Source of the DNA: a bacterium
GTDB lineage: Bacteria; Patescibacteriota; Dojkabacteria; GCA-016699595
DNA length: 64,000 nucleotides
Direction of reading: 5' to 3'
Assembly (NCBI GenBank): GCA_016699595.1
Contig: CP064982.1
Span: 643,118-707,117 of the forward strand
Below are positions 25,468 to 42,675 of this stretch, in pieces; within the stretch, counting starts at the first letter, position 1; the number at the start of each line of letters is the position of its first letter. A model generated the notes under the pieces. The model had not been told where the DNA came from. It made no database searches and saw only the letters and a list, made by a program, of their open reading frames with translations. Both the position numbers and the translations under genes were made by a program.

Positions 25468-25549
25468 TACCGAAGACAGGAGTCGAACCTGCACCTGATG
25501 AAAGACTACGACCTGAACGTAGCGCGTCTACCAATTTCGCCACTTCGGC
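25468..25549 (-). tRNA. tRNA-Leu (anticodon CAG), type II with long variable arm
   Basis: Reverse complement: GCCGAAGTGGCGAAATTGGTAGACGCGCTACGTTCAGGTCGTAG..GCAGGTTCGACTCCTGTCTTCGGTA. Acceptor and D stems pair. Anticodon stem CTACG/CGTAG with loop TTCAGGT. T-loop TTCGACT. Coordinates within 1-2 nt. Confidence 0.75.
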
Positions 25550-30872: not shown

Positions 30873-30946
30873 CGTCCCCAGCGTGATTTGAACACACAAC
30901 CCTCACTTCCGCAAAGTGATGCTCTATCCAATTGAGCTATGGGGAC
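30873..30946 (-). tRNA. tRNA-Arg; anticodon read as GCG (unusual for bacteria, verify)
   Basis: Reverse complement GTCCCCATAGCTCAATTGGATAGAGCATCACTTTGCGGAAGTGAGGGTTGTGTGTTCAAATCACGCTGGGGACG. Acceptor GTCCCCA/TGGGGAC, D stem GCTC/GAGC, anticodon stem TCACT/AGTGA with loop TTGCGGA, T stem GTGTG/CACGC with loop TTCAAAT. Confidence 0.7.
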
Positions 30947-35690: not shown

Positions 35691-36278
35691 ATGTCATCAG
35701 AATCTAATACACAAAAAAAGTCTATACCAACTTGGAGGAAAAGACTAATTCCACAATCTCACCTTATGGACCTGGGTGAGAAACTTCGAGAAAAGGACAA
35801 GAAAGTAGTTTATACGGCTGGAGCGTGGGATATGATACATGTAGGACAAGCAAGATACTTAGAGGAAGCAAAAAATAGAGGTGATATATTGGTAGTAGGA
35901 ATCGTAAGCGACTCAGTGATCAAACGACTGAAAGGGCCAAATCGTCCTATATTGGGAGAGCAACTTAGAGCTGAAATGGTAGCTTCTTTGAGATGTGTAG
36001 ACTTCGTAACTATAGTCAACGAACCTTCAAGTCAACCAGTTTTAGGGTTACTTAAACCTGATGTGTACCAAACTGTTCAAGAAGATTGGAACAAAGATTA
36101 CAAAGAATCGATTGAGTACAAAACTGTCATAAAGTATGGTGGGGAAGTAGTTTTGATTGACAGGCAATCACCAGCCATTTCAACTACAAAGATATTGGAA
36201 AGAACTGTCGCTGCTCAATTATCTGATATATTTAAAGAATATATGAAATTGGTTGAAAAACCTTTGAAAGAGCGCTAA
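35691..36278 (+). CDS. cytidylyltransferase-like nucleotidyltransferase (HldE domain II / TagD-type)
   Basis: VVYTAGAWDMIHVGQARYLEEAKNRGDILVVGIVSDSVIKRLKGPNRPI..ERAEMVASLRCVDFV carries the FDxxHxGH-type nucleotidyltransferase signature. Confidence 0.7.
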   Translation: MSSESNTQKKSIPTWRKRLIPQSHLMDLGEKLREKDKKVVYTAGAWDMIHVGQARYLEEAKNRGDILVVGIVSDSVIKRLKGPNRPILGEQLRAEMVASLRCVDFVTIVNEPSSQPVLGLLKPDVYQTVQEDWNKDYKESIEYKTVIKYGGEVVLIDRQSPAISTTKILERTVAAQLSDIFKEYMKLVEKPLKER

Positions 36279-36287
36279 ACAAGCTTT

Positions 36288-36809
36288 ATGAGTACCAACC
36301 TAAAAAAAATTACAAGTGCCCGAGCTTCTGACTGGTATGGGAATATCTGGAAGACTGTTGGTAAATGTGTTTTTTGTGATTTGAATGAAAAGTACATTTT
36401 AGCAGAAGAAGAGGAAATGGCGCTAGTAATGAACAAATATCCTTATACTGACGGACATTTACTAGTAGTTCCAAGAGTTCACATAGCATCTTGCAAAGAA
36501 TTAACAGAATCTCAGTGGCAAATAATTCGTAAGTTTCAATATATTGCAAGAAAACTTTTCAAGAAGTATTTAGACTCAAAAAGTTCTTCCATTTGGACTT
36601 TGATCAGAGAGGGTGGAGTCGAAGCTCAAGTTACTGTTTCAGATCACTTGCATATTCACCTAATCCCGTTTTCCAATCCTGAACTTTGCAAGTGGAATTT
36701 TCAAGAGGAAATTTACGAGGTTGAAGATATGAAAAATCTACTTATCTCAGAATGTGAAATCGAAAAATATGCAAAAAAGTGGGAAAAGAAGTACAAAACT
36801 ACACTGTAA
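36288..36809 (+). CDS. HIT-family (histidine triad) nucleotide hydrolase/transferase
   Basis: CVFCD at the N-terminus and ...GHLLVVPRVH..DHLHIHLIPF (HxHxHxx histidine triad). Confidence 0.75.
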   Translation: MSTNLKKITSARASDWYGNIWKTVGKCVFCDLNEKYILAEEEEMALVMNKYPYTDGHLLVVPRVHIASCKELTESQWQIIRKFQYIARKLFKKYLDSKSSSIWTLIREGGVEAQVTVSDHLHIHLIPFSNPELCKWNFQEEIYEVEDMKNLLISECEIEKYAKKWEKKYKTTL

Positions 36810-36860
36810 GCAAATGCAGATAATCCCACAAAAGTAAAAAGGTACAAGTTGATTCAACCT

Positions 36861-37043
36861 TCAGGCTTTTTTGAGAAATTTTCCAGCTACGCCAACCATT
36901 ATGAAGACCAAAGGTGTAAGCCATCTTACAATCTCTGGTACATTGTCAAATCTTCTTGGCACTAGTTTTAAAAAGTACATCAACAAGAATATGGCACCTA
37001 GTGTTAGAAAATAGTTTGAGTATTTGATTAAGTAATTTTTCAT
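36861..37043 (-). CDS. small two-TM membrane protein, hypothetical
   Basis: 60 aa with two hydrophobic helices and a KKA tail, sitting alone in a 440-bp gap. Confidence 0.3.
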   Translation of the reverse strand: MKNYLIKYSNYFLTLGAIFLLMYFLKLVPRRFDNVPEIVRWLTPLVFIMVGVAGKFLKKA

Positions 37044-37247
37044 TTGTTATAATAAAGCAAACAGATTTGTTTGAAGTAATTGTACATTAGATTACTGATA
37101 ATTTGCAAGACCTATCCGTACAAATAATTTCATAATATTCAAAACTTGTATAATTACTTTAGTTATTGAAAAATGATCGTTTTGTAATTCTAAAAGCCTA
37201 GAGTATTATCTAAATAAATTTACAAGTTATATTCTAGCTTTCAAAGT

Positions 37248-38255
37248 TTGAAGGTAATTTCATTGATGCAAATTCTCAACTATTCACCACAAAACCCAGA
37301 CTTAACTTCAAAAAAGTTTGTATTCATCATAGGATCTCGCAAAATTACACAGAAAAGAATTATTGAACTGTTTATGAAATACGATACTTCTGTGTCTTCA
37401 ACACATCTCCCTTCTGAAGGGAGACAAAATACGCAGATTTTATGGGGAATTCTGAATGAAAAGTATATCAAAGGACTTGAAAATTCACCTCAATTCGAAA
37501 GTATGCAACTTGCATATTTAACTACTACTTTTGAAAAGTTTGCAAAGAAGTATCCTAAGTACAATTTAGACAATTTAACTATTCTCAAATATAATTTTGA
37601 TAATTGGAAAGATATTTTGCAAGAACTTGATTTTGAAAAAGTTATTTTGATAAATGCTTCATGGCACAGATCATTTCATAGAAGAGCTGAATATGAAATT
37701 TTGAAATCTCGCAACATTCCCTATCAATTTTCTAGTTCTTATTTTTCAGATGAAGAAGCAAAGTTAGATTCAAATGTTGATTATTCAAAGTTAGATAAAC
37801 TTATTGGAACTGAACTTCTTGAAACAGATACAGAATCTATTTGGAATATATTAAATGAGATCAAAGTTTATTCTTATGATCATCTTTTTCAAACGAGTTG
37901 CTTGATTTTGAATGATAATCAAATTCTTTCTTGGGGAGTAAACAAGATAATGCCTTATGAAACTTATGATTTTCATCATGTAAGTTCAAATGAAAAAATG
38001 CTAACTCCGATGAATAGTAGTGATGCACAAGATACAATTCATGCTGAGATGAATGCAATTTTGAAAGTTGGAAACAAAGATGACCTGAAAGGTGCAAAAT
38101 TATTTATAGAACTTATGCCATGTCCGTGGTGCGCTAAAGTGATAGCTGAAAGTGGAATCGGTGAAGTTAGTTGCAAACTAGTGCATAATGGAGGACATGC
38201 AGCAGAGCTATTTAAGGAAATGGGGGTGAGGATGAAGGTAATTAGAGAAATGTGA
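37248..38255 (+). CDS. cytidine/dCMP deaminase-family protein with a ~220-aa N-terminal domain of unknown function
   Basis: The C-terminal part SCLILNDNQILSWGVNK..HAEMNAILKVG..KLFIELMPCPWCAKVIAESGI has the H-A-E and P-C-x-x-C zinc motifs of the CDA fold. Confidence 0.65.
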   Translation: MKVISLMQILNYSPQNPDLTSKKFVFIIGSRKITQKRIIELFMKYDTSVSSTHLPSEGRQNTQILWGILNEKYIKGLENSPQFESMQLAYLTTTFEKFAKKYPKYNLDNLTILKYNFDNWKDILQELDFEKVILINASWHRSFHRRAEYEILKSRNIPYQFSSSYFSDEEAKLDSNVDYSKLDKLIGTELLETDTESIWNILNEIKVYSYDHLFQTSCLILNDNQILSWGVNKIMPYETYDFHHVSSNEKMLTPMNSSDAQDTIHAEMNAILKVGNKDDLKGAKLFIELMPCPWCAKVIAESGIGEVSCKLVHNGGHAAELFKEMGVRMKVIREM

Positions 38256-38270
38256 TTTCTGGTATAAATT

Positions 38271-39851
38271 ATGTCTTATCCAATCTTTTATAAAGAACAA
38301 CTCACAATTGGAAACCTGAATTCCAATGTCGGAATTGTTACCCTTTGGACTCCGAGGCAAACTTTTACTTCTAGACTTGATCCAAGTTCTTTTGCAATTT
38401 GTGGGCAACTTTATTCAAAACGAGGAATCAACTATATCATCCGAAACATTTTGGCAAATCCCATTATAGATACTTTGATAATTTGTGGAGCAAATAGATC
38501 AGAAAGTGCAGAAAGTTTGAAAAACTTTATAGATCTAGGAATTGATGAAAATCATAATGTCAAATCTTGCGAAAAATCTCCGGTTGACAAAGAAATTACA
38601 AAAGAATATTTAGAACTATTTAGAAAGAATATAAAGTATATTGATTTAACTGGCGAACTTAAGGCGAGTGAAATCCAAAAGAAATTAGATGAAATAAATA
38701 AAAATAATAATAACACTGAAATTAAACATTGGGCAGAACCGAAAGAATTTCCTATAGCTGAAGCTGAAACTGCAAGTGAATTTCCCAGTGAACAAAATGT
38801 TTTTAGTATTCGATCCGAATATGTAGATGAAGCTTGGATTCAGATTTTGAGACACATCATGAAGTTTGGAGAAGATAGTTATATGCTTTCAGGTGCTAAA
38901 GTGAAAGTTTTGAGTAATTTGATAGTTACAATTTCAAAAGAAGATCCAGATAAACCAGAACTTCCTGATTTTATGACTTTCAATCAAGGTGACCTCAAAC
39001 TTTATTACAAAGGTTTTTTTGAAAAAACTAAACAAAGTGAAGATTATGGGTATGGTGAGAGAATGTTCAATTATCCAAACCCACTGCAAGCCCCCATTGA
39101 AAAGGGGGAAAGTCACGAAGTGAGTGGGGGTTTACTTCTCAATCAAGTTGAAATAATTTACAAAAAACTCAAAGCTAGAAAATATGATGCGGGAGCAATT
39201 ATATCTATTTGGAATCCTTGGATTGACAATGGATCGTTTTTGAAATATTCAAATAATAGTGATAATGGAGTTCAACAAGTGAAACCCCTACAAACTCAGA
39301 ATGTTCCTTGTATGACACAACTTCAATTTTCTTATGTCAATCACAAGTTAAACCTAACTGCATACTTTAGATCAAATGATATGTTTGACGCATGGCCTAG
39401 AAATACTTTCGCACTTAGAAAACTTCAAATGATGCTTGCAACAAAACTTGGGATGAAAGTTGGTGAACTTACAACAATTTCAAATCTGGCTCAAATATAT
39501 GAACTGAATTATCAAAATGCAGAAGAAGTTATCAAGAAATTTGAAAACAAGATGTTTTGTATGCAAGATAAAAGAGGAAATTTGATAATGGAAATCGAAG
39601 AAAGAAATGGAGAACTTTTTATAATTGCAAAGCATATGAGCCGTGACGGAAACGAAGTTTTGCAAGCTTACTCAATTAATGGTAATGATACAAACTCAGC
39701 TCAAAAACTAGGTGATATCTTACTTTCAAATTTAGTTATCTCAGATCTTTCGCACAGCATGGATATTGGACGTGAACTTATGAAAGCAGAAATTGCAATT
39801 AAGTCAGGCAGGGCAAAAAATTATCAGCAGGATAAAGGCTTGGATCTTTAA
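38271..39851 (+). CDS. thymidylate-synthase-superfamily protein with an MtrA-like N-terminal domain and a C-terminal extension
   Basis: ThyA-family blocks: ISIWNPW, VPCMTQLQFSYV (nucleophile Cys), YFRSNDMFDAWPRNTFAL (Arg and Asn177 equivalents). GD(A/T)HxY is replaced by SNLAQIY. The N-terminal VGIVTLWT..AICGQLYSKRGINYIIRNILANPIIDTLIICGAN resembles the MtrA motif [38 protein letters not shown], recalled from memory. Confidence 0.55.
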   Translation: MSYPIFYKEQLTIGNLNSNVGIVTLWTPRQTFTSRLDPSSFAICGQLYSKRGINYIIRNILANPIIDTLIICGANRSESAESLKNFIDLGIDENHNVKSCEKSPVDKEITKEYLELFRKNIKYIDLTGELKASEIQKKLDEINKNNNNTEIKHWAEPKEFPIAEAETASEFPSEQNVFSIRSEYVDEAWIQILRHIMKFGEDSYMLSGAKVKVLSNLIVTISKEDPDKPELPDFMTFNQGDLKLYYKGFFEKTKQSEDYGYGERMFNYPNPLQAPIEKGESHEVSGGLLLNQVEIIYKKLKARKYDAGAIISIWNPWIDNGSFLKYSNNSDNGVQQVKPLQTQNVPCMTQLQFSYVNHKLNLTAYFRSNDMFDAWPRNTFALRKLQMMLATKLGMKVGELTTISNLAQIYELNYQNAEEVIKKFENKMFCMQDKRGNLIMEIEERNGELFIIAKHMSRDGNEVLQAYSINGNDTNSAQKLGDILLSNLVISDLSHSMDIGRELMKAEIAIKSGRAKNYQQDKGLDL

Positions 39852-39931
39852 ATGATTTGTAGATATGTGTATAATATTTCTTATAGATTTATCAGTATTT
39901 TGACAAATTTGATTAATTATTTGCATTACCA

Positions 39932-40777
39932 GTGATGAATACTTTTAACTCAATTAATGTCACCAATTTCGATTTGGATAAAACGCTTACAAGTGGACAG
40001 TTTTTTGTTTGGGAAAAATCTAATGAATACTGGGTCGGTGCTACAATAGATGGTTTAATAGTGTTATTGCAACCAAATGAACACACTATCTTGTGGCAAA
40101 CATACCCCGAAAACAATAATCTTTCGCTTGTTACTAGATATCTTCGATTAGATTTTGACATAGATCCATTAGCAATTGCATTATCTAAGGATGCCTATAC
40201 GAAAAAAGCATATGATAAATATCGAGGACTACGCTTACTGAGGCAAAATGTTCACGAAGCTACAATCTCTTTCATTGTATCGGCCAACAACAATATTCCT
40301 GCAATTCGGAAGTCGATTAAGAAACTATCTACTATGTGTAATAGATCTGTATTATTTCAGAATAAAGAATACTATTTATTTCCTAAAATAAGTGCAATTG
40401 CTGAACTATCTATAGAGGAATTGAAGACTTGTTCATTTGGATATCGTGCAAAATATATAAAAGAAAGCGCTGCCAGGCTTATTACTTGGAATCTGGAAAA
40501 CTTCACACGTGAGAATGAAGCCACAATCCGAAATGATTTACTCACATTACCGGGAGTAGGCAATAAGGTAGCCGATTGCGTTCTATGCTACGCATTGGGG
40601 TTTGATAATGTAACGCCACTAGATGTGTGGGGACAAAGGATCCTGACGCAGTATTATGACATTGATCCAAAACTCTCGTATGAGAAAATGCGTAATTGGA
40701 CGCAAGAAAAGTTTTTTGGCTATGCAGCTTGGGCAGGGCAATATTTATTTGAATATATCCGTAATTCTTCCAAATAA
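39932..40777 (+). CDS. MutM/Nei-family (Fpg/Nei-like) bifunctional DNA glycosylase/AP lyase
   Basis: 281-aa ORF in a cluster of base-excision-repair genes with xth at 46099-46872 and a Nudix hydrolase at 45536-46102. The call corrects my first reading of the motifs LTSGQFFVWEKS, LLRQNVHEATISFIVSANNNIPAI and LPGVGNKVADCVL..TPLDVW as an OGG1-type HhH-GPD enzyme. Confidence 0.7.
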   Translation: MMNTFNSINVTNFDLDKTLTSGQFFVWEKSNEYWVGATIDGLIVLLQPNEHTILWQTYPENNNLSLVTRYLRLDFDIDPLAIALSKDAYTKKAYDKYRGLRLLRQNVHEATISFIVSANNNIPAIRKSIKKLSTMCNRSVLFQNKEYYLFPKISAIAELSIEELKTCSFGYRAKYIKESAARLITWNLENFTRENEATIRNDLLTLPGVGNKVADCVLCYALGFDNVTPLDVWGQRILTQYYDIDPKLSYEKMRNWTQEKFFGYAAWAGQYLFEYIRNSSK

Positions 40778-41052: not shown

Positions 41053-41478
41053 ATGATTATAAATTTTCATCCTAAAGAAATAGAAAGTAAACTTGGAGTT
41101 CAAGTTATTTCAGAATTAAATAAAGATAATAAACATCAAGTTTTTCATTCAACTGATAAATCAAAACAAGAATGGCAAGATATTATTAGATCAGAAGAAG
41201 AACTTCATTTGGTTGCTCCAGTTTATTGGTGGGGTTTTAGTTATAATTTTGATAAATGGGTTCAAGACGTGATTGCTTATGGTTTTGCATTTTTATTTGA
41301 TGAAACTGGAAAAAAAGGTTTGATGAATGGTAGAAAGTTTAATGTGCATTTAACTCATGGACATACACCAGATGGAGATCCTACAATGAAAGAAAATTTA
41401 GAGGAAAGACTTCGAACTGGAATATTTAACTATGTTGGAGCTGAAGTTGAGATAATTTGGTACATGGTACAAAGATAA
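41053..41478 (+). CDS. MazG-like NTP pyrophosphohydrolase
   Basis: 141-aa ORF immediately downstream of the Fpg/Nei-family glycosylase gene. The call corrects my first reading of INFHP..LVAPVYWWGFSYNFDKWVQDV as a flavodoxin-like NAD(P)H oxidoreductase motif. Confidence 0.5.
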   Translation: MIINFHPKEIESKLGVQVISELNKDNKHQVFHSTDKSKQEWQDIIRSEEELHLVAPVYWWGFSYNFDKWVQDVIAYGFAFLFDETGKKGLMNGRKFNVHLTHGHTPDGDPTMKENLEERLRTGIFNYVGAEVEIIWYMVQR

Positions 41479-41509
41479 AGTTATTCAATAAAATTGAATT
41501 CAAAATATT

Positions 41510-41953
41510 ATGCAAATACAAGATTATTTTCATGAAGCTTTTCAAGTTTCAGGATACAACTTTACAATTCAAAAATCTGAAATGACTTCTCAAATTCAAG
41601 AAATTTGGGCTAAGTTTAGGACTTCAGACTTACTTTCAAAAATAGAGAATGTCGAAAATGGTTCTCTACATGCTGTTTATCATAATTATAATTCAGAAAG
41701 TTTTGATATGCTGATTGGACTTTTGACTAAGAAAGATTCAATACAGTCAAGCTCAGAAATTACAACTTTGCAAATTCCAGATCAAAAGTATAAATTTGTT
41801 GAGCTAGATTTTATTGGTCCAGATTCTGTTGCTGAAGCTTGGAACGAGATAAATTCTAAATCTCAAGAAGAAATTGATAGAAATTATAAATATGATCTTG
41901 AGATGTATTCCCTAGATATGAAAAAGTGTTGGATTGCAGTTTCAGTTAAATGA
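41510..41953 (+). CDS. DNA-ligase-family protein with divergent motifs (second of two in this island)
   Basis: 147-aa ORF; start 31 nt after the MazG-like gene and end overlapping the next ORF by 4 nt, so operonic within the repair island. Small size and no clear enzyme motif; my first guess was a GyrI-like ligand-binding fold. Confidence 0.35.
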   Translation: MQIQDYFHEAFQVSGYNFTIQKSEMTSQIQEIWAKFRTSDLLSKIENVENGSLHAVYHNYNSESFDMLIGLLTKKDSIQSSSEITTLQIPDQKYKFVELDFIGPDSVAEAWNEINSKSQEEIDRNYKYDLEMYSLDMKKCWIAVSVK

Positions 41954-42675
41954 CAACTATTCAAAACAAGATCTTAAAACTCAAAGAAATTTGGGATTTG
42001 AACTTGATTCCTCAAGAACACAAGCATGAGGTTCATCCAAACTTAGATATTTCTGATCGGTTGAATTATACTTACTTCACTTTTCCAGTTGCACTGAATT
42101 TTCAAAGAAATTCGCCAGCTTTGTGGAAAGCTGCACTTGACACTTTTGAAGACACTGCTACAAACTATTTGTTTTATCCTGAAAAAGTTGTAGAGACTGA
42201 TATAGAGAAAGTTAGAATTGATCTAAGAAAACATAAACTATCATTGCAACCAAATAAACACACCGATATTTGGATAAAGTTAGCAAAAACTTTTCGTGAT
42301 AAATTTGAAGATGATCCTAGAATATTTTTTAAGAAATATGATTTTGATGTTGTAAAAATCAAACAAGCACTTGAAAAAGATTTGAAATCAAGCTTTCCAT
42401 ATTTATCTGGCGCTAAGATGGCAAATTATTGGTTATATATTTTGTATAATTATTCTGATGCTAAGTTTGCAAATTTAGATAAAATTAGTATAATTCCAGA
42501 TACTCATGTGATGCAATGTTCGATTCAACTTGGAATCGCAACTGAAAGTGATAGTAGGGAAGTAGTTGCTGAGAAATGGTTTGAGGTACTGAAAGGAACT
42601 AACTTGATTCCAATTGATATGCATCCAATTCTTTGGAATTGGAGTAGAAATAATTTCAAGCCGGAAATAAATTAA
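41950..42675 (+). CDS. class I SAM-dependent methyltransferase
   Basis: 241-aa ORF in the repair island, translationally coupled to the upstream 147-aa gene (4-nt overlap). The call corrects my first reading of ..FPYLSGAKMANYWLYIL..IIPDTHVMQCSIQLGI as a loose HhH-GPD glycosylase motif. Confidence 0.3.
   Translation: MTTIQNKILKLKEIWDLNLIPQEHKHEVHPNLDISDRLNYTYFTFPVALNFQRNSPALWKAALDTFEDTATNYLFYPEKVVETDIEKVRIDLRKHKLSLQPNKHTDIWIKLAKTFRDKFEDDPRIFFKKYDFDVVKIKQALEKDLKSSFPYLSGAKMANYWLYILYNYSDAKFANLDKISIIPDTHVMQCSIQLGIATESDSREVVAEKWFEVLKGTNLIPIDMHPILWNWSRNNFKPEIN

What the first reader, a model, noticed from the sequence alone, without database searches (positions are those of the whole stretch)
37248..39851. 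Operon pairing a dCMP-deaminase-family enzyme and a thymidylate-synthase-family enzyme, each with a large extra domain (MtrA-like + ThyA-like fusion)
Two adjacent genes separated by a 15-bp gap encode (i) a CDA-fold deaminase with H-A-E / PCxxC zinc motifs, preceded by ~220 aa of unknown sequence, and (ii) a 526-aa protein. The central region of the second protein keeps the ThyA nucleophile Cys (VPCMTQLQF), the dUMP-phosphate Arg (FRSND) and the Asn that specifies uracil over cytosine (PRNTF). The GD(A/T)H loop is replaced by SNLAQ. Its N-terminal ~130 aa resemble, by recollection, the corrinoid-binding MtrA domain (V.VTL...GI..V.NI.ANP.I..LI.CGA), and a ~90-aa C-terminal extension is present. 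ThyA-superfamily enzymes include thymidylate synthase, dCMP and dUMP hydroxymethylases, and other C5-pyrimidine one-carbon transferases used for DNA hypermodification in phages. A deaminase plus a C5-modifying enzyme is the T4-like route to non-canonical pyrimidines. Here both carry novel domains and sit in a cellular chromosome next to a DNA-repair island. This could be an uncharacterised pyrimidine nucleotide or DNA/RNA base modification system, or a divergent thymidylate synthesis route that uses an unusual one-carbon carrier.
Basis: partly seen in the sequence, partly recalled or inferred. Interest (0 to 1): 0.7.

Follow-up and report, generated by a model that had tools for sequence, protein, structure and literature searches.

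The report
Three-domain thymidylate synthase with dCMP deaminase
The two genes are most likely the ordinary dCMP-to-dUMP-to-dTMP step of DNA-precursor synthesis in an ultra-small (CPR) bacterium, but both enzymes carry conserved extra domains that nobody has characterised, and these same domains recur in hundreds of CPR bacteria, DPANN archaea and uncultivated phages.

Summary
ORF 37266-38255 is a dCMP-deaminase-type enzyme. ORF 38271-39851 has three domains: MtrA-like, archaeal-type ThyA and DUF4346.

The architecture is not unique to this genome. It occurs in at least 277 protein clusters and 214 species genomes of CPR bacteria and DPANN archaea, and in 104 uncultivated viral contigs. The ThyA core keeps the nucleophile Cys, the Arg166 equivalent and the uracil-specifying Asn in every sequence examined. 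Neighbouring genes are thymidylate kinase, ribosomal and translation genes, or phage nrdA/nrdB. This points to housekeeping dTMP synthesis, not DNA hypermodification.

The function of the accessory domains and the one-carbon donor are unknown. I found no paper on this architecture. I rate it a new variant of a known kind, of moderate to high interest.

The parts
37266..38255 (+). Two-domain dCMP-deaminase-type protein (329 aa from ATG 37266; TTG 37248 is an alternative start). NCBI QQR93460, 'hypothetical protein'.
37266..37835 (+). N-terminal domain of the deaminase (aa ~1-190): a degenerate cytidylyltransferase-like (HUP-class nucleotidyltransferase) domain in which the HxGH motif is lost (FIIGSRKITQKR).
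37884..38174 (+). CDA-fold zinc deaminase domain (HAE 38040-38048; PCPWC 38118-38132).
   Evidence: Pfam PF00383 E 1.3e-13. H259, E261, C286 and C289 are invariant in 41 homologues. Motifs verified.
38271..39851 (+). Three-domain thymidylate-synthase-family protein (526 aa). NCBI QQR93461, 'hypothetical protein'.
   Evidence: AF2 model pLDDT 90.1, pTM 0.77.
38271..38708 (+). MtrA-like Rossmann-type N-domain (aa 1-146) with the invariant GQLYSK motif (aa 45-50). It lacks the corrinoid ligands.
38805..39551 (+). Archaeal (methanogen-type) ThyA catalytic core (aa 179-427): Cys347 (39309-39311), Arg367 (39369-39371), Asn378 (39402-39404), Tyr261, Asp370, Gln408, Tyr410.
39564..39833 (+). C-terminal DUF4346 ('PterinBD-DUF4346') domain (aa 432-521). 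It lies where the last ~55 residues of bacterial ThyA would be.
35691..36278 (+). Cytidylyltransferase-like protein (RfaE-II/ECT-like; motif HVGQ instead of HxGH). Part of the conserved upstream domain set.
   Evidence: Pfam PF01467. TIGR02199 122 bits. PDB: ECT 3elb E 4e-16, HldC 5x9q E 9e-14. Conserved upstream of the fusion in 47 of 66 loci.
36288..36809 (+). HIT-family protein (HLHIHLIP triad). Part of the conserved upstream domain set.
   Evidence: Pfam HIT/DcpS_C. PDB HIT proteins and Ap4A phosphorylase. Upstream of the fusion in 40 of 66 loci. Fused to the deaminase or to CTL in several genomes.
36861..37043 (-). Small opposite-strand ORF (60 aa, hydrophobic). In this genome it separates the CTL-HIT genes from the deaminase-ThyA genes, so these are two transcription units here.
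   Evidence: The NCBI accession numbering leaves one slot (QQR93459) between HIT and the deaminase.

Best explanation
The two genes are the lineage's housekeeping dTMP-synthesis step. The first enzyme deaminates dCMP to dUMP. The second is a thymidylate synthase built on the minimal archaeal-type ThyA core. It activates dUMP through Cys347 and methylates C5 to give dTMP, which thymidylate kinase then phosphorylates in many related genomes. These steps are inferred from residues and gene context; no activity was measured.

The extra domains are lineage-wide accessories rather than a new pathway. The MtrA-like and DUF4346 domains most likely form a cofactor-handling module for the reduced one-carbon carrier. 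The minimal ThyA core lacks the C-terminal segment that closes over folate in bacterial ThyA. The MtrA-like domain keeps a conserved ligand face (GQLYSK and the CGxDxSGSG loop) but is not a His-ligated corrinoid site.

The deaminase's N-terminal domain is a catalytically dead cytidylyltransferase-like domain. It probably pairs with the upstream active cytidylyltransferase-like protein, as in the pseudo-dimer of tandem cytidylyltransferases. This would tether the deaminase to a cytidylyltransferase + HIT pair, which may supply or sense cytidine nucleotides, for example dCTP -> dCDP-X -> dCMP. That last step is speculative.

For: In the ThyA core, the equivalents of Cys146, Arg166, Asn177 and Tyr94 are invariant in 87 cellular sequences. 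The first three are also present in all 75 viral sequences. Asp169 and Tyr209 are mostly kept.

The family is large and vertically conserved. It has 277 protein clusters and 214 species genomes across CPR and DPANN, and NCBI and JGI often name it 'thymidylate synthase'.

Gene context supports a housekeeping role. A deaminase gene lies upstream on the same strand in 51 of 66 loci and is directly adjacent in 29. Thymidylate kinase lies directly downstream or within 4 kb in 21 loci. Other neighbours are NusG, L11, L1, S2, EF-Ts, RRF and GatB. In viral contigs the same three-domain protein sits next to nrdA/nrdB.

For the accessory domains, DUF4346 also ends the pterin-enzyme family TIGR00284, and it co-occurs with an MtrA-like region in NF002128. 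A stand-alone archaeal ThyA (L066) ends exactly at the Tyr209-equivalent position.

The domain set of 2 CTL-like + 1 HIT + 1 CDA is found in 40 of 60 loci, in five different fusion arrangements.
Against: No member of this family, and as far as I know no archaeal-type ThyA, has a defined one-carbon donor. A 2022 comparative-genomics paper says ThyA biochemistry in methanogens is little known (PMC9012536).

Every ThyA NCBIfam model scores below its curated cut-off.

The window protein and its 94% relative lack two residues conserved in the family. These are E213->V and R/K307->A, the E. coli R126' position. They also have Gln at the His207 position.

The residue at the L143 position is polar (N/R/S/K). 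This removes one textbook argument against hydroxymethylation.

I could not scan the rest of the 762-kb genome for another thyA or thyX, or for folA. The roles proposed for the accessory domains and for the CTL/HIT pair rest on inference only.
Confidence: 0.7

Rival explanations
1. The protein is a cofactor-autonomous thymidylate synthase, a mechanistically new class. In this reading the MtrA-like domain binds a redox or methyl-carrying cofactor (flavin, NAD(P)H, or a corrinoid without a His ligand), and DUF4346 binds the pterin. The enzyme then either re-reduces its own dihydropterin, as a functional analogue of DHFR-TS, or transfers a methyl group through the cofactor. Either way, no separate DHFR would be needed.
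For: The N-domain is Rossmann-type and sits N-terminal to TS, as in DHFR-TS. Its ligand-face loops are invariant (GQLYSK, CG..SGSG). No FolA-like or ThyX-like ORF was found in any of 81 cellular or 80 viral loci, whereas thyA-folA synteny is common in bacteria (PMC11974145). ThyA-fold enzymes are now known to use flavin (PMC13326640). Phages carry the three-domain unit as a portable module beside nrdAB.
Against: The corrinoid ligands His84 and Glu54 are absent. No NAD(P)- or flavin-binding family matches the N-domain. Asp370, the folate-contacting Asp169 equivalent, is mostly kept, as expected for a classical pterin-oxidising ThyA. Absence of folA from 20-kb flanks says little about whole genomes, and some CPR do encode functional folA.
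Confidence: 0.15
2. The pair is a pyrimidine hypermodification route. The ThyA homologue makes 5-hydroxymethyl-dUMP or another C5-modified nucleotide, leading to non-canonical DNA.
For: The ThyA superfamily includes dUMP and dCMP hydroxymethylases, CMP hydroxymethylase and 5-hydroxy-dCMP synthase. The L143-equivalent residue is polar rather than bulky and hydrophobic. Relatives occur in uncultivated phages. The window protein has unusual substitutions.
Against: Asn177 is invariant, so dCMP routes are excluded, and no acidic residue sits at the L143 position. The pair is conserved in core housekeeping neighbourhoods, with thymidylate kinase, in hundreds of cellular species. No glycosyltransferase, kinase or other hypermodification genes are conserved beside it. 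In phages it sits beside nrdA/nrdB, where T4 (by my recollection) carries td.
Confidence: 0.06
3. In this particular lineage the ThyA domain is impaired or repurposed, as a regulatory or binding protein, because conserved residues were lost. Another enzyme or salvage pathway makes dTMP.
For: E213V, R307A and H408Q occur in the window protein and its 94% relative. No tmk is present in the 64-kb window.
Against: All strictly invariant catalytic residues are kept. Ala at the R126' position is the normal state in 66 of 75 viral homologues, and Gln at 408 occurs in 41 of 87 cellular ones. The two sequences are 94% identical over 526 aa, with an intact frame and the adjacent deaminase retained.
Confidence: 0.05
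4. The deaminase is an anti-phage nucleotide-depletion enzyme (dCTP-deaminase type defence), with the ThyA homologue as an accessory.
For: There is a weak NCBIfam match to the anti-phage dCTP deaminase family NF041025, 36 bits.
Against: That score is far below the 400-bit cut-off and covers only the zinc motif. The best structural and sequence relatives are metabolic dCMP deaminases. The gene context is housekeeping and conserved.
Confidence: 0.02

Closest known systems
Archaeal (methanogen-type) thymidylate synthase, NCBIfam TIGR03283. From memory, it includes M. jannaschii MJ0757.
   Same: This is the best-scoring ThyA model (113 bits, aligned over aa 179-416). The motifs match a stand-alone 202-aa archaeal ThyA in L066: YTYGER, PCM, FRSND, AWP.NAF, SAHIY. 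The core is minimal and ends at the Tyr209 equivalent.
   Different: The score is below the 174.55-bit equivalog cut-off. The core here is embedded between an MtrA-like domain and a DUF4346 domain. CPR members have lost the second inter-subunit Arg, and the window protein has lost both.
Bifunctional DHFR-TS of protozoa and plants
   Same: An alpha/beta nucleotide-binding-type domain is fused N-terminal to a ThyA domain in one polypeptide of about 500 aa. Foldseek aligns the model over ~500 columns, but with rmsd ~24 A.
   Different: The N-domain is MtrA-like, not DHFR (no PF00186 match). There is an additional C-terminal DUF4346. No reductase activity is shown or predicted.
MtrA and the cytoplasmic MtrA homologues (PDB 5LAA, 5L8X; Wagner et al. 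2016, PMC4915002)
   Different: His84 (cobalt ligand) and Glu54 are missing in the whole family. There is no membrane anchor, and the neighbouring genes examined in the window and the fetched loci are not Mtr partners. The domain is fused to ThyA.
dCMP deaminase + thymidylate synthase routes (T4 Cd/Td; ComEB-type dCMP deaminase of Gram-positive bacteria; eukaryotic DCTD/TYMS)
   Same: The two chemical steps are inferred to be the same, dCMP -> dUMP -> dTMP. The deaminase domain is closest to T4 Cd, cyanophage, S. mutans and human dCMP deaminases.
   Different: The deaminase carries, or is flanked by, cytidylyltransferase-like and HIT domains. TIGR02571 scores 36 bits against a cut-off of 219. 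Allosteric dCTP/dTTP site residues were not assessed.
Other ThyA-fold enzymes: flavin-dependent 5-hydroxy-dCMP synthase (PDB 9iqc; PMC13326640), MilA, T4 dCMP hydroxymethylase
   Different: Those enzymes have Asp at the Asn177 position and an acidic residue at the L143 position. Here Asn is invariant and the L143 position is N/R/S/K. Sequence identity is only 15-21%.
Tandem cytidylyltransferases such as ethanolamine-phosphate cytidylyltransferase (PDB 3elb) and HldC/RfaE domain II
   Same: The upstream CTL protein is closest to these. The conserved set always contains two CTL-like domains, one of which is degenerate, like the pseudo-dimer of ECT.
   Different: The second domain is fused either to the first CTL or to the deaminase. 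The substrate is unknown. In the window clade the HxGH motif reads HVGQ in the 'active' copy as well.

Membership tests
Thymidylate synthase ThyA superfamily (PF00303) | Profile and fold match to ThyA | tested here: met
   [not shown]
Thymidylate synthase ThyA superfamily (PF00303) | Catalytic nucleophile Cys146 and phosphate-binding Arg166/Ser167 | tested here: met
   C347 and R367 are invariant in 87/87, and S368 is present in 84/87.
Thymidylate synthase ThyA superfamily (PF00303) | Asn177, specifying uracil (dUMP) over cytosine | tested here: met
   N378 is present in 87/87 cellular and 75/75 viral homologues.
Thymidylate synthase ThyA superfamily (PF00303) | Inter-subunit arginine pair R126'/R127' | tested here: not met
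   The window has A307/G308. The family has R/K at 307 in 85/87, and the consensus 'DRGA' puts Gly at the R127' position.
Thymidylate synthase ThyA superfamily (PF00303) | C-terminal segment (E. coli 210-264) that closes over the folate | tested here: not met
   The core ends at the Tyr209 equivalent and is followed by a helix and DUF4346.
Thymidylate synthase ThyA superfamily (PF00303) | Conversion of dUMP + CH2-H4folate to dTMP + H2folate | not testable with these tools
   Needs an enzyme assay or complementation.
Archaeal-type thymidylate synthase TIGR03283 (equivalog) | Score at or above the curated cut-off of 174.55 bits | tested here: not met
   113 bits. This is the best of all ThyA models; the bacterial TIGR03284 scores 30.5 bits.
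MtrA, corrinoid-binding subunit of the H4MPT:CoM methyltransferase | MtrA fold and Pfam PF04208 match | tested here: met
   [not shown]
MtrA, corrinoid-binding subunit of the H4MPT:CoM methyltransferase | His84 lower axial cobalt ligand and its Glu54 hydrogen-bond partner (PMC4915002) | tested here: not met
   His84 falls in a 2-residue deletion. I found no His at positions 72-83 in the 87 sequences. Glu54 is replaced by Lys50 in 85/87.
MtrA, corrinoid-binding subunit of the H4MPT:CoM methyltransferase | Equivalog score (TIGR01111, 249 bits), membrane anchor and Mtr partner genes | tested here: not met
   31.6-34.8 bits. The domain is an internal N-terminal module. None of the neighbouring genes examined in the window or the loci is an Mtr partner.
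DUF4346 (PF14251) | Profile match above the gathering score | tested here: met
   44 bits, cut-off 29.6. Viral homologues score 44-75 bits.
dCMP deaminase (CDA fold, PF00383; ComEB TIGR02571) | H(A)E and PCxxC zinc and catalytic motifs | tested here: met
   H259, E261, C286 and C289 are invariant in 41 sequences.
dCMP deaminase (CDA fold, PF00383; ComEB TIGR02571) | Closest relatives are dCMP deaminases rather than tRNA, cytidine or guanine deaminases | tested here: met
   [not shown]
dCMP deaminase (CDA fold, PF00383; ComEB TIGR02571) | Equivalog score (219 bits) and the dCTP/dTTP allosteric site | tested here: not met
   36.2 bits. The allosteric residues were not examined.
Anti-phage dCTP deaminase (NF041025) | Score at or above 400 bits over the full architecture | tested here: not met
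   36.4 bits, covering the zinc-motif region only.
Phage dCMP/dUMP C5-modifying ThyA homologues (T4 gp42, MilA, 5hodCMP synthase) | Asp at the N177 position and an acidic residue at the L143 position | tested here: not met
   Asn is invariant. The L143 position is N/R/S/K in cellular sequences and mostly G in viral ones.
Cytidylyltransferase-like family (PF01467), for the deaminase N-domain | HUP nucleotidyltransferase fold | tested here: met
   [not shown]
Cytidylyltransferase-like family (PF01467), for the deaminase N-domain | Catalytic (H/T)xGH motif | tested here: not met
   GSRKITQKR replaces G.FD..H.GH. There is no Pfam hit to PF01467 in any of the 41 members.
Bifunctional DHFR-TS | DHFR domain (PF00186) fused to TS | tested here: not met
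   No DHFR profile match. No FolA-like ORF was found in any locus.

The most novel reading that the evidence does not exclude
The MtrA-like/ThyA/DUF4346 protein could be a third mechanistic type of thymidylate synthase. In it, the fused domains would hold and regenerate, or replace, the one-carbon cofactor, so that dTMP synthesis needs no separate dihydrofolate reductase. The fusion would also act as a 'Rosetta stone' naming the missing partners of the poorly understood minimal ThyA of methanogens. Together with the conserved cytidylyltransferase-HIT-deaminase domain set, it would define a previously unrecognised dCTP-to-dTMP conversion module typical of ultra-small symbiotic prokaryotes and some phages.
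Probability: 0.15. Interest if true: 0.9.

Novelty: new variant of a known kind. Interest (0 to 1): 0.55.

Why it matters
Thymidylate synthesis is essential and is a classic drug target. Only two enzyme classes are known, ThyA and ThyX, and which cofactor archaeal-type ThyA uses is still unsettled.

A three-domain ThyA conserved across CPR bacteria, DPANN archaea and uncultivated phages shows that the minimal archaeal core normally works with two extra domains. One of these is a remodelled corrinoid-protein fold. This gives concrete constructs for testing what the one-carbon donor is and whether DHFR is dispensable.

The shuffled but constant domain set (two cytidylyltransferase-like, one HIT, one dCMP deaminase) upstream suggests an undescribed way of feeding cytidine nucleotides into dTMP synthesis in organisms that depend on salvage.

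If instead the accessories turn out to be only structural, the locus is ordinary housekeeping metabolism. The value is then a corrected annotation, because both proteins are currently 'hypothetical' in the source genome.

Tried and rejected
- **Riboswitch or other RNA element upstream.** Rfam found only two tRNAs elsewhere in the window at gathering threshold, and nothing credible in 36700-37400.
- **Promoter and terminator scan of 36700-40100.** No enrichment over shuffled sequence.
- **Literature.** There were no papers for 'DUF4346' or 'PterinBD'. No relevant paper combined MtrA with thymidylate synthase, and nothing covered CPR dTMP operons with HIT or cytidylyltransferase genes.
- **Corrinoid-binding reading of the N-domain.** Rejected as a His-on site because His84 and Glu54 are absent. 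A ligand-free corrinoid site cannot be excluded.
- **dCMP-directed chemistry** (methylating dCMP and then deaminating). Rejected because Asn177 is invariant.
- **Anti-phage deaminase reading.** Rejected on score and context.
- **Search for FolA-like or ThyX-like genes near the fusion.** None in 161 loci. The flanks are short, so this is only weak evidence.
- **GenBank phages.** No full-length relative was found.
- **Limits of the tools.** I could not obtain model coordinates, so domain contacts, the position of E213/R307 and the location of the accessory domains relative to the active site remain unknown. I could not read the rest of the source genome.


Full report
**Observation.** Both ORFs are present as described. 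The first runs to 38255. The listed TTG start at 37248 is possible, but NCBI's protein (QQR93460, 329 aa) and the homologue alignment begin at ATG 37266. The second is 38271-39851 (526 aa, QQR93461), after a gap of exactly 15 bp.

Pfam assigns dCMP_cyt_deam_1 to aa 213-309 of the first protein. For the second it assigns three domains above their curated thresholds: MtrA (aa 9-146, 42.2 bits against a cut-off of 25), Thymidylat_synt (aa 259-427) and PterinBD-DUF4346 (aa 432-521). NCBIfam's best ThyA model is the methanogen-type TIGR03283 (113 bits, aa 179-416), which is below its equivalog cut-off. The window has about 32% G+C. It comes from a 761,814-bp contig of an NCBI MAG labelled 'bacterium', in which both proteins are named 'hypothetical protein'.

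**How common it is.** The three-domain protein is not a singleton. A word-indexed search returned 277 protein clusters, nearly all with the same three Pfam domains. They came from Dojkabacteria, WWE3, many Parcubacteria lineages and Aenigmarchaeota, and NCBI or JGI often named them 'thymidylate synthase'. A scan of one genome per GTDB species found relatives in 214 genomes, including Woesearchaeota. A scan of IMG/VR then found 104 viral contigs that encode full-length relatives (24-31% identity, 470-533 aa, matching the family HMM end to end). Pfam sees ThyA and DUF4346 in these, while the N-domain is more diverged. No GenBank phage genome has a full-length relative. I found no paper that mentions DUF4346 or discusses MtrA together with thymidylate synthase.

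**The ThyA core.** Profile alignment to E. coli ThyA maps Cys146 to C347, Arg166 to R367, Ser167 to S368, Asp169 to D370, Asn177 to N378, Tyr94 to Y261, His207 to Q408 and Tyr209 to Y410. Among 87 cellular homologues C347, R367, N378 and Y261 are invariant. Position 408 is His or Gln in about equal numbers. All 75 viral homologues examined keep Cys, Arg, Asn, His and Tyr.

The invariant Asn argues for dUMP as substrate. Enzymes that act on dCMP or CMP have Asp there and an acidic residue at the L143 position (PMC13326640). Here the L143 position is N/R/S/K. That is neither the hydrophobic residue of classical ThyA nor the acidic residue of hydroxymethylases.

The core is the minimal archaeal type. 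A stand-alone 202-aa ThyA in a Woesearchaeota-labelled contig has the same motifs and ends at the Tyr209-equivalent position. The roughly 55 C-terminal residues of bacterial ThyA, which include the tail that closes on folate, therefore have no counterpart. In the fusion that position is occupied by DUF4346.

The ~190-aa N-terminal region has no Pfam hit in any of the 41 members. Even so, it is a degenerate cytidylyltransferase-like domain, on two lines of evidence:
- **hhalign.** It links to the N-domains of 270-335-aa deaminases from other CPR bacteria, which keep an HKGY motif (prob 98.2, E 5.5e-14). Those in turn link to stand-alone cytidylyltransferase-like proteins (prob 94.6, E 7e-8). 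A HIT control scores prob 1.9.

The catalytic HxGH motif is replaced by GSRKITQKR.

**Gene context.** I called ORFs in 80 fetched genomic loci and searched them with the window's proteins. A deaminase gene lies upstream on the same strand in 51 of 66 loci with enough flank, and is directly adjacent in 29. A cytidylyltransferase-like gene (window 35691-36278) is upstream in 47 loci and a HIT gene (window 36288-36809) in 40.

Counting domains rather than genes shows a constant set. Two cytidylyltransferase-like domains, one HIT domain and one deaminase domain occur together in 40 of 60 loci. They appear in five different fusion arrangements:
- [ctl][hit][ctl-like-CDA]
- [ctl-ctl][hit][CDA]
- [ctl-ctl][hit-CDA]
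- [ctl-ctl-hit][CDA]
- [ctl][ctl-hit][CDA]

A constant domain set with shuffled fusions is strong evidence that these domains work together. The window has the first arrangement. In this genome, however, a 60-aa opposite-strand ORF (36861-37043) separates ctl-hit from deaminase-ThyA.

The cytidylyltransferase-like protein is closest to ethanolamine-phosphate cytidylyltransferase and HldC/RfaE-II. In the window's clade its motif reads HVGQ. Downstream of the ThyA fusion, thymidylate kinase follows on the same strand in 15 loci and lies within 4 kb in 21. In two Woesearchaeota loci it sits directly upstream. Other frequent neighbours are NusG, L11, L1, S2, EF-Ts, RRF and GatB. In the largest group of viral loci the fusion sits about 1 kb upstream of class I ribonucleotide reductase nrdA and nrdB. 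By my recollection of the T4 gene map, this is where td lies. No FolA-like or ThyX-motif ORF occurs in any of the 161 loci. The OGG glycosylase downstream in the window is not a conserved neighbour.

**Interpretation.** The evidence favours housekeeping dTMP synthesis, dCMP to dUMP to dTMP. The substrate-defining residues, the linkage to thymidylate kinase and to RNR, the housekeeping neighbourhoods and the wide vertical distribution all point that way. I put this at about 0.7.

The extra domains are real, conserved and uncharacterised. I think the MtrA-like and DUF4346 pair most likely handles the reduced one-carbon carrier for a ThyA core that lacks its own folate-closing tail. The dead cytidylyltransferase-like domain on the deaminase probably pairs with the upstream cytidylyltransferase-like protein. 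A plausible but untested chemical logic for the upstream pair is dCTP + X-phosphate -> dCDP-X -> dCMP, which would feed the deaminase. The gene order ctl-hit-deaminase-ThyA(-tmk) follows that pathway order.

**Caveats.** No family member has been assayed. The window protein and its 94% relative carry E213V and R/K307A at otherwise conserved positions. Ala at 307 is, however, the usual state in the viral clade, so I read this as a tolerated or co-varying change rather than inactivation. The closest solved structure uses flavin rather than folate, so the superfamily can switch cofactors. I could not inspect model coordinates or the rest of the genome.

**Verdict.** The hypermodification interpretation is not supported. 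The idea of a divergent thymidylate synthesis enzyme with unusual cofactor handling remains open. I rate it a new variant of a known kind, with interest 0.55. The most novel reading not excluded is a DHFR-independent, cofactor-autonomous thymidylate synthase, at a probability of about 0.15.

Noticed in passing
window 35691-36809 (+); loci L003-L079: A cytidylyltransferase-like gene and a HIT gene lie upstream of the pair. They belong to a conserved domain set (2 CTL-like + 1 HIT + 1 CDA) found in 40 of 60 related loci in five different gene-fusion arrangements. The function of the CTL/HIT pair is unknown.
   Followed up: yes
L082-L161 (IMG/VR viral contigs), e.g. L102 3467-5011, L131 3952-6204: 104 uncultivated viral contigs encode full-length relatives of the three-domain ThyA protein, with all dUMP-type catalytic residues. 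In about 30 loci the gene lies ~1 kb upstream of nrdA/nrdB. No relative is found in GenBank phage genomes.
   Followed up: partly
L066 3105-9232 (-): A Woesearchaeota-labelled contig carries, besides the fusion, a stand-alone 202-aa archaeal-type ThyA. It is embedded among acetyl-CoA synthase/CO dehydrogenase genes (CdhD, CooC-like, CdhC/ACS).
   Followed up: no
window 38907-38909 (V213) and 39189-39191 (A307): The window protein and its 94%-identical relative replace two residues conserved in 85 other cellular homologues: Glu213 and Arg/Lys307, the E. coli R126' position. Another co-varying set (M213/K307/F408/D410) occurs in three homologues. This may reflect an ion pair, but it is unresolved.
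   Followed up: partly
window 36861-37043 (-): A 60-aa hydrophobic ORF on the opposite strand sits in the 440-bp gap between the HIT gene and the deaminase gene, splitting the conserved cluster into two transcription units in this genome.
   Followed up: partly
window 35814-35843; loci L003-L008, L014: In the window's clade (the fusion's closest named relatives are Dojkabacteria MAGs) the stand-alone cytidylyltransferase-like protein has HVGQ instead of the catalytic HxGH motif. Other CPR clades keep H(I/V)GH.
   Followed up: partly
[not shown]
   Followed up: partly
window 39932-40777, 41053-42675: Downstream genes are an OGG-type 8-oxoguanine glycosylase, a truncated flavodoxin-like-fold protein, a Cass2/GyrI-like protein and a 241-aa ORF (41950-42675) with no Pfam match. 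None is conserved next to the pair in other genomes.
   Followed up: partly
window 25468-25549 (-) and 30873-30946 (-): Two tRNA genes are the only Rfam matches at gathering threshold in the whole window.
   Followed up: no
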